This document shows positions 1-3,000 of a stretch of DNA of 64,000 nt, one piece after another. Positions within the stretch are counted from its first letter, which is position 1. Each line of letters starts with the position of its first letter. The position numbers are program-made. Location: NCBI RefSeq assembly GCF_055900595.2, contig NZ_CM148325.1; one strand, given 5' to 3'.

Positions 1-3000
1 GCCATTTTCATTTCATGAGCCTGAATGGATATAGCTCTCCATTCTTTAACTTGCTCAACAAATAACCCCATTCTCCGACAATAATCAGCCAGTTCCATTT
101 CAGATAATGTTGCAGTTTCAATTACAACAGAAAATCGTCGCTCCGGTGTCCATTCATTTCCATCGACAGAAGATATTTTTTCATTTTCAGGTAACAGGCC
201 TTGTTGCACCAGTTCAAGTCTCCATCTTGCTATTACTGAAGGGCTCAGGTCCAGTTTACGAGCAATATGCCGTATGGACCAACTATAAGGTGGTAATAAC
301 CAGGTAACACCTTGTTCTTTTATATCAATTGGTACTGCATGTGCGGGCATAGTCTCTCTCCTGTGTAAAAATCTAGGCGACAACTATGCTGACACAGGGG
401 GTTATTCAGCGATCTGTTCAAATGTTATTACCCGATCTCGATGGAAGTTATTGAGTGATCTCCTTTCATGAAAATACGCAGCCCTCATGGAGGGTAAAAA
501 GCGCGCCGGTCACTTTGCCGACATTGCGGATAAGCAGGTCTATCCAGCCCTCTCCGCAGTCAGAAACAGAAATGGGCGCCTCCCCGACGCATGGCAGGGA
601 GACTTCGACAAACTGTCCCCAGCGGGCCGGAAAATCGACTTCCACACGGAAATTCCACTCCTGTGGTGTATGACGGGTGATGGAAATAATGCGGTATGCA
701 GCAGGCAAAAGGCTGTGCTTTTCTTTATCGTGACAGGAACACGTTGACACAGGTTATGCCTCCCCGGAGAGTGCCTGCCGGACAGCGGCAGTCATTTTAT
801 TGATAATACGTGAGAATTTAATGTACTGAGGACAACGGTCATCGCAGCGTCCGCAGCCCACGCACATATGCTCAGTACCATTGCGGGCTTTGTAATCATT
901 GACTTTATGAAGTGCACGGTAACGTAAACGTTCTCCCGCAGACTGGCGAAAACGGTGTCCGCCGGCCATATCGCTGAAACCCGGTACCATACAGCTGGCC
1001 CACTGGCGGCGGCGTTCACCACGCTGAGGGTTTTCGTCATAAGCCACATCAAAAACGCTGTAGCAGGTACAGGTCGGACACCCGGTTGTGCAGCGCCCGC
1101 AACCAATACAGCGACTGTTATACTCATCCCAGAGCGGATGATTGATAATAATGTCGCGAACGCTTTGGGGGGACTGACAGATTTTTTCAGGGAGGGTAAC
1201 CTGCTCCGGGTTTTCGCTGACGAAGACAGGCTCATATTCCGTGCGCTGTCCCATTCCCTGTAAGGCTTCTTCAAAAAAAGCATCCCTGATAAAAACACTG
1301 GCGCCGTCATCACTGAAACGCATTGCCGCGCTGTAATTATCGGTTTTATTACTCCCCATGGAGACACAGAAACAGTTTTCAAAACTTTGCGGGCACTCAA
1401 TCAGAACAAAACGAATATGGTCGCGCAGTCGCTGATAACTGTAATCAGAATTATTCCCGTTTGATAAATACATATAATCCAGTCGCGACATGGCATTAAT
1501 GTCACAGGCGCGGGCAAATATAAGTACTGGTGTGGTATCTGTTTCCGCAATCTGGATAGTGTCTTTATTAAAATAAAAGAGCGTCTCTGTTATCGGTGAA
1601 ATAATCGTATTGGGTGACATGTGGGATTTCTCCTGCCAGACCAGGTCATCCCATCCCCGGATTTGCTGATAAATGATGTTGTCCGTATCAGCAAAACGCC
1701 CGCCGCGAAACTCGGCAGAAGGTGCCAGGACGCGCCATCTCGTGTTCAGTCTCTGGATTAACAGACTGAACTCTTCAGGCGTGATTTTAACCGCCATCAC
1801 ATACTCCATTACCTGTCAGTGAAGAATATATTGAGAAAATAATGCTTCTTTTTTTACGCTAACGCTGAAGCGTTAACAGTAACAACGGAAAAAACAGATT
1901 TTTGTTATCGCTATAATTAATAAGTGGTGACTCAGGTACCCACATGGAGTAACACCGTTGTACGACGTCCACCGAAACAACAAATGCTGTTTCGTTCACG
2001 CATGCGGTACGGTGACGGGAACACATGGCTGCATGAAATATGCCGGAAACAAGGTGGCAACGGTGAGCGATTAACGAAGATATATGGCAGAGCGGAAGCA
2101 GACAGGAGTATCTGACCGGGCGATTTATGCTTTCCCTGTTCATCAGCGATTGATAAAGTTTTGTCAGATGAATTTTTATACGGAACTCTTTTCAGTATGC
2201 GTACACGAATTGATTATCTGGCGGATAAATACTGTTTTACAGAACGGAACGAATCCCCCCGTCTTCGCCGGCAGTGGCAGGATGTTCTGGAGGAGTGCCG
2301 GCAGACAGAGGCCGGGCCAGAAGAACGGCTGCGTATTGCACTGCTGAATGTGGATTACGTCACCAGTTTTGAACTGCCTTTTCGCTTGTTGCTTACCCGG
2401 ACACCACAACTGATTGCCGCGCTGCGTGAAGAATGGGACATCAGTCAGAAAAATGTGGTGTTTAACGATAAACGGTTTGGTTGCGTGTACAGCCTGAAGG
2501 CCAGCCTTTCTGGTGTGCCGGATACATTCCGGTATCATCTGTCTCACCGTATTCGTCGCGTGGTTGGGAATGAAAACACATCATTGCCATATCAGCAGGT
2601 TGCCCGGGAAGTGAAAGCGCCCCGTGAACGGCTGAAGTATGCACTGGAGGCGGGTTTACTGGTGACTGCACTGGACGGCCTGTTCTGGTCTGGCAGTCAG
2701 CGTATTGCGGCTGATGTTCTGAGGCTGAGAAAGGCCGGAATGCCGGTGGTGACCACGACCGTGGAGGTGCACGATAACCTGACAGGAACAACCCGCAAAG
2801 TACCGGCATACCATCTCTGATACAACCATCAGGGGGAATATTGCTCTGGCAGCAGCAGTACGACATTCTTTATACTTTATCCCCGTGCCTGAAAACATGT
2901 GCTAAGGAAACGGGAATGGCAAGGTCCGATTACGATATTATCAATCTGTCTCTGGAACATGAACTGAATGAGTGGCTGGCAGAGAGAGGTTATGCCGGAC

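What the first reader, a model, noticed from the sequence alone, without database searches (positions are those of the whole stretch)
1..1809. asrAB-like anaerobic sulfite reductase operon cut by an insertion element
asrA is intact, but asrB stops after ~90 codons at about 466 and is followed by an oppositely ordered transposase-like gene running off the window. The expected remainder of asrB and asrC is missing from the window. This suggests IS-mediated disruption of a metabolic operon inside the island.
Basis: partly seen in the sequence, partly recalled or inferred. Interest (0 to 1): 0.35.

Follow-up and report, generated by a model that had tools for sequence, protein, structure and literature searches.

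The report
IS element splitting E. coli asrB
A mobile DNA element (IS3 family) has jumped into the second gene of a Salmonella-type sulfite-to-sulfide reductase operon carried on an E. coli genomic island; the rest of the operon sits just past the window edge, so this is an ordinary, cleanly explained gene knockout.

Summary
On the minus strand, asrA (754-1797) is intact. asrB (start at 750) keeps 90 native codons and then runs into an insertion sequence at the 480|481 junction, reading 4 IS-encoded codons and a stop at 466-468. Bases 1-480 are the left end of a 1,744-bp IS3-family element. Its orfA starts at 350 and runs off the window.

Two points need correcting.
- The transposase gene lies on the same strand as asrAB, not opposite.
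- The missing asrB 3' part and asrC are not deleted. Ten public E. coli assemblies encode the identical 94-aa chimeric AsrB'. Two of them differ from the window by 4 nt in 10,750. In all ten the order is asrA, asrB', IS, asrB 3' (549 nt), asrC. The IS is flanked by a 5-bp target duplication, AGGGC (window 481-485). Removing the IS and one duplicate in silico restores a full 272-aa AsrB.

This is therefore a single simple transposition, not a deletion or rearrangement. asr genes occur in only 57 of 5,426 complete E. coli genomes, and none of those carries this junction. It is an ordinary IS pseudogenisation, of low interest.

The parts
754..1797 (-). asrA, intact (347 aa): ferredoxin-like subunit of anaerobic sulfite reductase
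   Evidence: TIGR02910 equivalog, 560 bits against a cut-off of 323, full length. PF17179 Fer4_22. 98.3% aa identity to the intact SCU-308 AsrA. 82% identity to the Salmonella AsrA cluster. The longest ORF reaches 1809, but ATG 1797 has a GGAG at the right spacing and matches annotated relatives.
466..750 (-). asrB', truncated chimeric ORF: 90 native codons (750-481), then 4 IS-encoded codons (CVFS) and TGA at 466-468
   Evidence: ORF list. TIGR02911 positions 1-79 of 261 only, 113.6 bits, below the cut-off of 288.6. tblastn AsrB residues 1-90 align to 750-481. The exact 94-aa product is found on 248 public contigs.
481..485 (.). One copy of the 5-bp target-site duplication (GCCCT on +, AGGGC in gene orientation)
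   Evidence: All 10 related loci have AGGGC on both sides of the IS. Deleting the IS plus 5 bp, but not 3 or 4 bp, restores a 272-aa AsrB.
1..480 (-). Left 480 bp of a 1,744-bp IS3-family insertion sequence; the rest lies beyond the window start
   Evidence: 100% identical to complete copies annotated as IS3 family transposase with a programmed frameshift. The end was defined by alignment to copies in other contexts. The full element was characterised in L005-L014.
447..480 (-). Terminal inverted repeat (IRL): TGCGTATTTTCATGAAAGGAGATCACTCAATAAC
   Evidence: It pairs with the IRR TGCGTATTACCGTGAAGGAGATCGGTGAGTAAC of the complete element. The ends are 5'-TG...CA-3'.
3..350 (-). IS orfA, first 116 of 170 codons (HTH DNA-binding part of the transposase), same strand as asrAB
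   Evidence: Translation and weak HTH_Tnp_1 / IS3 hits. The full 170-aa OrfA and the -1-frame OrfB (rve domain, NF033516 172.9 bits against a cut-off of 160) were seen in L006.
1798..2160 (-). asrA upstream (regulatory) region, containing a perfect 16-bp palindrome TAACGCTGAAGCGTTA at 1860-1875
   Evidence: Sequence. The palindrome was located, and is conserved in a strain with the intact operon. No convincing sigma-70 consensus hit on the minus strand. Function not tested.

Best explanation
A 1,744-bp IS3-family insertion sequence transposed once into codon 90/91 of asrB. asrB is the middle gene of an asrABC (anaerobic, siroheme-type sulfite reductase) operon carried on an E. coli pheV genomic island. 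The insertion duplicated 5 bp of target (AGGGC) and lies in the same orientation as the operon.

Shown: asrA stays intact. AsrB is cut inside its N-terminal FAD-binding barrel, before the NAD-binding domain (residues 116-217) and the [2Fe-2S] domain (residues 235-264). The native reading frame ends after four IS-derived codons. The asrB 3' part (549 nt) and an intact asrC lie immediately beyond the IS, just outside the window.

Inferred, not tested: without the AsrB electron-transfer flavoprotein, the AsrABC complex cannot pass reducing equivalents to the AsrC siroheme subunit. The strain should therefore be unable to reduce sulfite to H2S by this route. Any expression of asrC would depend on read-through from the IS.

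The allele is nearly invariant across many assemblies, so the event is recent and clonally inherited.
For: - Junction at 480|481. Homology to intact asrAB of 15 or more complete E. coli genomes covers 481-2400 and stops there. Bases 1-480 match the end of an IS3-family element found in 1,793 genomes.
- The exact 94-aa chimeric AsrB' occurs on 248 contigs in 450 collection blocks.
- L005 and L008 differ from the window by 4 of 10,750 nt.
- All 10 loci read have the order asrA, asrB', IS (1,743 or 1,744 bp), asrB 3', asrC, with AGGGC on both sides of the IS.
- In-silico excision of the IS plus 5 bp gives a 272-aa AsrB that scores 438 bits on TIGR02911 against a cut-off of 288.6.
- AsrC (337 aa) scores 502 bits on TIGR02912.
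- IS features: TG...CA inverted repeats, orfA and orfB in a -1 overlap, an rve domain, and the IS3 equivalog HMM above its cut-off.
- IS-bearing alleles differ from each other by 0-2 SNPs in asrA, 0 in asrB and 0-1 in asrC.
Against: - The window itself ends inside the IS. What lies beyond its own start is inferred from near-identical genomes, not seen directly.
- Loss of sulfite reduction is inferred from domain architecture; no phenotype data were available.
- No -1 slippery heptamer of the classical A AAA AAG type lies in the orfA/orfB overlap. The frameshift site is therefore taken from PGAP annotation, not demonstrated here.
Confidence: 0.93

Rival explanations
1. IS-mediated deletion or rearrangement: the IS marks a breakpoint at which the asrB 3' part and asrC were lost from this genome. 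This is what the first reader's wording implies.
For: No asrB 3' part or asrC sequence lies anywhere in the 64-kb window. The window ends inside the IS, so its own far junction is unseen.
Against: Genomes that differ from the window by 4 of 10,750 nt, and 8 further assemblies with the same junction, all have the asrB 3' part and asrC directly after the IS, with a matching 5-bp target duplication. A deletion would not leave a matched duplication.
Confidence: 0.04
2. Assembly artefact: a contig mis-joined at a multicopy IS, with asrB intact in the real genome.
For: The IS is multicopy in E. coli, with a median of 3 places per genome that has it. Repeats of this kind commonly cause misjoins.
Against: Both IS-asrB junctions, with a matched target duplication, occur in independent assemblies from different projects. 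These include contigs of 3.1 Mb and 1.09 Mb and Logan, ENA and NCBI sources. A misjoin would not create a 5-bp duplication that restores the ORF on excision.
Confidence: 0.01
3. The interruption is functional rather than purely destructive. It could be a reversible switch, with precise excision between the 5-bp repeats restoring asrB. Alternatively, the lineage may have been selected for loss of H2S production.
For: The IS copies are essentially intact and 99.8% identical to a plasmid-borne copy of the same element. The allele is widespread, on 248 contigs. asrA and asrC remain intact in 9 of 10 loci. H2S from AsrABC affects E. coli respiration in the gut (PMC12452934).
Against: IS3-family elements transpose by copy-out-paste-in, and precise excision is rare (established knowledge). 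No revertant allele with this lineage's asrA at 99% identity or more was found among 5,426 complete genomes. The near-identity of the alleles is equally explained by recent clonal descent.
Confidence: 0.02

Closest known systems
Salmonella enterica asrABC anaerobic (dissimilatory-type, siroheme) sulfite reductase operon
   Same: Same gene order asrA-asrB-asrC. All three products pass the NCBIfam equivalog models (TIGR02910, TIGR02911 after reconstruction, TIGR02912). AsrA is 82% identical over 100% of its length to the Salmonella AsrA cluster.
   Different: Here the operon sits on a horizontally acquired pheV island in E. coli. The species usually lacks asr: 57 of 5,426 complete genomes carry it. 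asrB is also split by an IS, so the enzyme is predicted to be inactive.
Intact asrABC of E. coli accessory islands and plasmids (e.g. strain SCU-308, NZ_CP053281.1)
   Same: 98.3% nucleotide identity over window 481-2400, with the same upstream ECs1377-family neighbour.
   Different: In SCU-308 asrB is an uninterrupted 272-codon gene followed by asrC. The window's lineage has the 1,744-bp IS between codons 90 and 91.
IS3-family insertion sequences (orfA/orfB with -1 frameshift, DDE 'rve' transposase)
   Same: TG...CA terminal inverted repeats, orfA and orfB overlapping in the -1 frame, an rve catalytic domain, and a short target duplication.
   Different: At 1,744 bp, with a 512-aa fusion product, it is larger than the E. 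coli IS3-family members I recall (about 1.2-1.45 kb, own knowledge). Its left end carries one to three 23-bp subterminal units. No specific element name was found in the annotations.

Membership tests
AsrABC anaerobic sulfite reductase | AsrA: ferredoxin-like subunit matching the AsrA equivalog model end to end | tested here: met
   TIGR02910, 560.1 bits against a cut-off of 323.15, model positions 1-333 of 334. Fer4_22 domain.
AsrABC anaerobic sulfite reductase | AsrB: full-length flavoprotein with FAD barrel, NAD-binding domain and C-terminal [2Fe-2S] domain | tested here: not met
   The window's asrB' covers only model positions 1-79 of 261 and scores 113.6 bits, below the cut-off of 288.6. 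The gene is a member by descent, because the reconstructed ORF scores 438.3 bits full length. As encoded, it is a pseudogene.
AsrABC anaerobic sulfite reductase | AsrC: siroheme/4Fe-4S catalytic subunit encoded downstream of asrB | tested here: inconclusive
   Absent from the window. Present and intact (TIGR02912, 502 bits) directly after the IS in near-identical genomes. The source genome itself is unseen.
AsrABC anaerobic sulfite reductase | Enzymatic reduction of sulfite to H2S under anaerobiosis | not testable with these tools
   This needs a phenotype test (bismuth-sulfite agar or an H2S assay). Predicted negative because AsrB is split.
IS3 family insertion sequence | DDE transposase with an rve core matching the IS3 model | tested here: met
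   OrfB scores 172.9 bits on NF033516 against a cut-off of 160, with PF00665 and PF13683 domains. This part lies outside the window, in L006.
IS3 family insertion sequence | Two consecutive ORFs, with orfB in the -1 frame and overlapping orfA, giving a frameshift fusion | tested here: met
   orfA is open over nt 98-640 in frame 1 and orfB over nt 565-1665 in frame 0. Any -1 shift within the overlap gives a 512-aa product. PGAP annotates a programmed frameshift. The slippery site itself was not identified.
IS3 family insertion sequence | Imperfect terminal inverted repeats ending 5'-TG...CA-3' | tested here: met
   IRL is TGCGTATTTTCATGAAAGGAGATC... and IRR is TGCGTATTACCGTGAAGGAGATC.... The IRL is in the window at 447-480.
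IS3 family insertion sequence | Short (3-5 bp) target-site duplication | tested here: met
   AGGGC on both sides in 10 of 10 loci. The window holds one copy at 481-485.

The most novel reading that the evidence does not exclude
The asrB::IS allele may be more than a neutral accident. It could have been fixed in a successful extraintestinal or commensal E. coli lineage because losing endogenous AsrABC-dependent H2S production is advantageous, for example by sparing the cell's own oxidases from sulfide. It could also act as a rarely reversible switch. asrA and asrC are still intact, and the allele is seen on about 250 contigs.
Probability: 0.05. Interest if true: 0.4.

Novelty: already known. 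Interest (0 to 1): 0.1.

Why it matters
It matters little beyond annotation. The asr genes in this island should be called a pseudo-operon: asrA intact, asrB split, asrC intact just outside the window. Strains of this lineage should be predicted negative for AsrABC-dependent sulfite reduction.

There is one modest point of context. asrABC is treated as a trait that separates Salmonella from E. coli, and it was recently linked to competition with E. coli in the gut (PMC12452934). About 1% of complete E. coli genomes carry an intact copy on islands or plasmids. This lineage acquired the operon and then lost its function through a single IS hop.

Tried and rejected
- Searched all complete RefSeq E. 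coli genomes for the same junction. None has it, and the best matches stop at 481. The one hit that appeared to extend into the IS (H66, P393-F10) is an unrelated IS remnant in a different island layout.
- Tried to name the IS from PGAP, PLSDB and cluster names. These give only 'IS3 family transposase', 'transposase' or 'hypothetical protein'.
- Tandem Repeats Finder does not detect the 23-bp units at the IS end because they are too divergent. They are supported only by exact 23-bp and 46-bp length differences between IS copies.
- The promoter scan gave no credible sigma-70 site for asrA or an outward IS promoter: 1 hit against 3.7 expected, on the wrong strand.
- Literature searches for an E. 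coli pheV-island asr operon or an asrB IS pseudogene found nothing specific.
- dN/dS against SCU-308 is 0.17 for asrA and 0.12 for asrB. This reflects purifying selection before the insertion and says nothing about relaxed selection since, because the IS-bearing alleles are nearly identical. The asrC calculation failed on an alignment offset and was not pursued.
- The genome contigs and metagenome-contig scans were not used, because the exact-protein look-up already supplied the flanking sequence.

Full report
**What is in the sequence.** All relevant genes in window 1-1809 lie on the minus strand.
- A 351-codon ORF spans 754-1809. Its true start is the ATG at 1797, which is preceded by GGAG at 1804-1807 and matches the 347-aa AsrA annotated in related E. 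coli.
- Three bases after the asrA stop, a GTG at 750 opens a 94-codon ORF that ends with TGA at 466-468.
- Further on, an ATG at 350 opens a reading frame that runs off the window start after 116 codons.

**Identity of the genes.**
- The 347-aa protein matches the NCBIfam AsrA equivalog TIGR02910 end to end, at 560 bits against a cut-off of 323. It also carries the Fer4_22 dicluster domain.
- It is 82% identical over its full length to the large Salmonella AsrA cluster. It differs at 6 residues from AsrA of E. coli SCU-308, whose asrABC operon is intact.
- The 94-aa product matches only positions 1-79 of the 261-position AsrB model TIGR02911, at 113.6 bits, below the cut-off of 288.6.
- The third frame gives weak HTH_Tnp_1, IS3 and IS66-TnpA hits.
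- Its DNA is 100% identical to the end of an element that PGAP annotates as 'IS3 family transposase, programmed frameshift'. That element occurs in 1,793 of 5,426 complete E. coli genomes and on many plasmids.

**The junction.**
- megablast of 1-2400 against complete E. coli genomes gives asrA/asrB matches that all begin at query position 481.
- Alignment with two copies of the IS in unrelated contexts shows that the IS ends at window 480 (...CATGAAAATACGCA).
- The native asrB reading frame therefore runs 750 to 481, which is 90 codons. Codons 91-94 (CVFS) and the stop are IS sequence.
- The break falls inside the N-terminal FAD-binding barrel. It lies ahead of the NAD-binding domain (residues 116-217) and the [2Fe-2S] domain (residues 235-264), as mapped on the reconstructed protein.

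**What lies beyond the window.**
- The window ends inside the IS, so I looked up the exact 94-aa chimeric protein in the public assembly index. It is on record in 450 collection blocks and on 248 contigs, all E. coli.
- Two of the ten loci fetched, L005 (contig UARY01000011.1 of GCA_900448525.1, 3.1 Mb) and L008, differ from the window by 4 mismatches over the 10,750 shared bases.
- In all ten loci the order is asrA, asrB' (94 aa), IS, a 144-aa ORF with NAD_binding_1 and DHODB_Fe-S_bind domains (the asrB 3' part as the gene caller saw it), and asrC (337 aa). An S6-peptidase autotransporter and an AbgT-family transporter follow.
- BLAST of L005 against the intact SCU-308 operon shows asr homology interrupted by exactly the IS.
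- The IS is 1,743 or 1,744 bp in every locus and is flanked on both sides by AGGGC.
- Deleting the IS plus 5 bp restores a 272-aa AsrB. Deleting the IS plus 3 or 4 bp does not. The restored protein scores 438 bits, full length, on TIGR02911.
- AsrC scores 502 bits on TIGR02912.
- This is the signature of one simple transposition with a 5-bp target-site duplication. The window holds one copy of that duplication at 481-485.

**The element.** The complete IS was read in L006.
- It has imperfect terminal inverted repeats beginning TGCGTATT... and ends of the form 5'-TG...CA-3'.
- orfA encodes 170 aa with an HTH domain. orfB lies in the -1 frame, overlaps orfA over nt 565-640, and carries rve and rve_3 domains.
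- orfB scores 172.9 bits on the IS3 equivalog HMM against a cut-off of 160. The fusion product is 512 aa.
- I could not assign an ISfinder name.

**Age and spread.**
- Among the ten IS-bearing loci, asrA differs by 0-2 SNPs and asrB by none. asrC differs by none, except for one locus (L008) with a new nonsense mutation.
- The IS copies differ only by single-base changes, including two 1-nt deletions, and are 99.8% identical to a plasmid-borne copy.
- The same allele sits in several structural variants of the island. For example, L006 and L009 lack the two-partner-secretion region that follows at 3986-10149 in the window.
- This fits a single, fairly recent insertion inherited clonally while the island kept rearranging.
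- In the curated set of complete genomes, asr genes occur in 57 of 5,426 genomes, in 46 chromosomal and 12 plasmid places. None reaches 99% identity to the window, and none carries this junction.

**Context.**
- The window is a pheV island. tRNA-Phe lies at 49814-49889 with an adjacent P4-type integrase at 48450-49667. The backbone genes speC and nupG follow.
- asrA's divergent neighbour at 2197-2817 is an ECs1377-family protein.

**Mechanism and consequence.**
- Shown: the insertion, its boundaries, the target duplication, the intact asrA, and the intact distal genes in near-identical genomes.
- Inferred from established knowledge of IS3-family elements: the element arrived by copy-out-paste-in transposition.
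- Inferred from domain architecture: AsrB is the FAD/NAD/[2Fe-2S] electron-transfer subunit. Splitting it at residue 90 should abolish electron delivery to the AsrC siroheme subunit, and with it AsrABC-dependent reduction of sulfite to H2S. This reaction is well characterised in Salmonella (PMC12452934).
- Whether asrC is still transcribed through the co-oriented IS is unknown.

**Rivals.**
- A deletion or rearrangement at the IS remains formally possible for the source genome, whose far junction is unseen. It is contradicted by the near-identical genomes and by the matched duplication.
- An assembly misjoin is excluded by the independent assemblies and by the ORF-restoring excision.
- An adaptive or reversible role cannot be excluded, but nothing found here supports it.

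**Verdict.** This is a textbook IS pseudogenisation of a rare accessory operon. It is already explained, the phenomenon is well known, and the interest is low.

Noticed in passing
window 401-469 (also L002 4375-4446, L003): The IS left end carries three 23-bp subterminal units (GTTATTnnnnGATCT...) at 401-423, 424-446 and 447-469, each with a Dam GATC site. Other copies of the same IS have two units (CH4797 plasmid) or one (GmM062), shown by exact 23-bp and 46-bp length differences. The right end has a single such unit. These may be reiterated transposase-binding sites. TRF does not call them because the units are only about 57% alike.
   Followed up: partly
L002 2648-2736 and 4458-4546 (plasmid of E. 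coli CH4797, NZ_JBRBPT010000002.1): This F-type plasmid copy of the same IS is flanked by an exact 89-bp direct duplication of target DNA, instead of the 5-bp duplication seen at asrB. That is unusual for an IS3-family insertion, and no explanation was pursued.
   Followed up: partly
window 1860-1875: A perfect 16-bp palindrome, TAACGCTGAAGCGTTA, lies 63 bp upstream of the asrA start codon. It is conserved in SCU-308, which has the intact operon. It is a candidate operator for an unidentified regulator of asr.
   Followed up: partly
L008 (GCA_958303425.1), asrC nt 310: One IS-bearing genome has an additional nonsense mutation in asrC (G310T, splitting it into 103-aa and 175-aa ORFs). This suggests the disabled operon is starting to decay.
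   Followed up: partly
window 3986-10149: A two-partner-secretion / contact-dependent-inhibition-type locus. It has a ShlB/FhaC-type transporter (3986-5725), a HlyC-family lysine acyltransferase (5735-6172) and a 1,341-aa filamentous-haemagglutinin-repeat protein with a PT-VENN pre-toxin domain (6124-10149). A DUF596 protein follows (seen in L005). The layout recalls cdiBCAI loci described in the literature (from memory, not checked here).
   Followed up: no
beyond window start (L005 13738-19484): In near-identical genomes the island continues past asrC with a 1,291-aa S6-family serine-protease autotransporter. Its closest solved relative is haemoglobin protease Hbp (1wxr, 1264 bits). An AbgT-family transporter follows.
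   Followed up: partly
E. coli genome collection: asrABC, usually treated as a Salmonella-versus-E. coli discriminator, is present in 57 of 5,426 complete E. coli genomes. Twelve of the places are on plasmids, for example NC_011416.1 of strain SE11.
   Followed up: partly
window 48450-49889: The island boundary: a P4-type tyrosine integrase (48450-49667, minus strand) next to tRNA-Phe (49814-49889, minus strand), followed by core genes including speC and nupG. The asr locus lies about 48 kb inside a pheV island that continues beyond the window start.
   Followed up: partly
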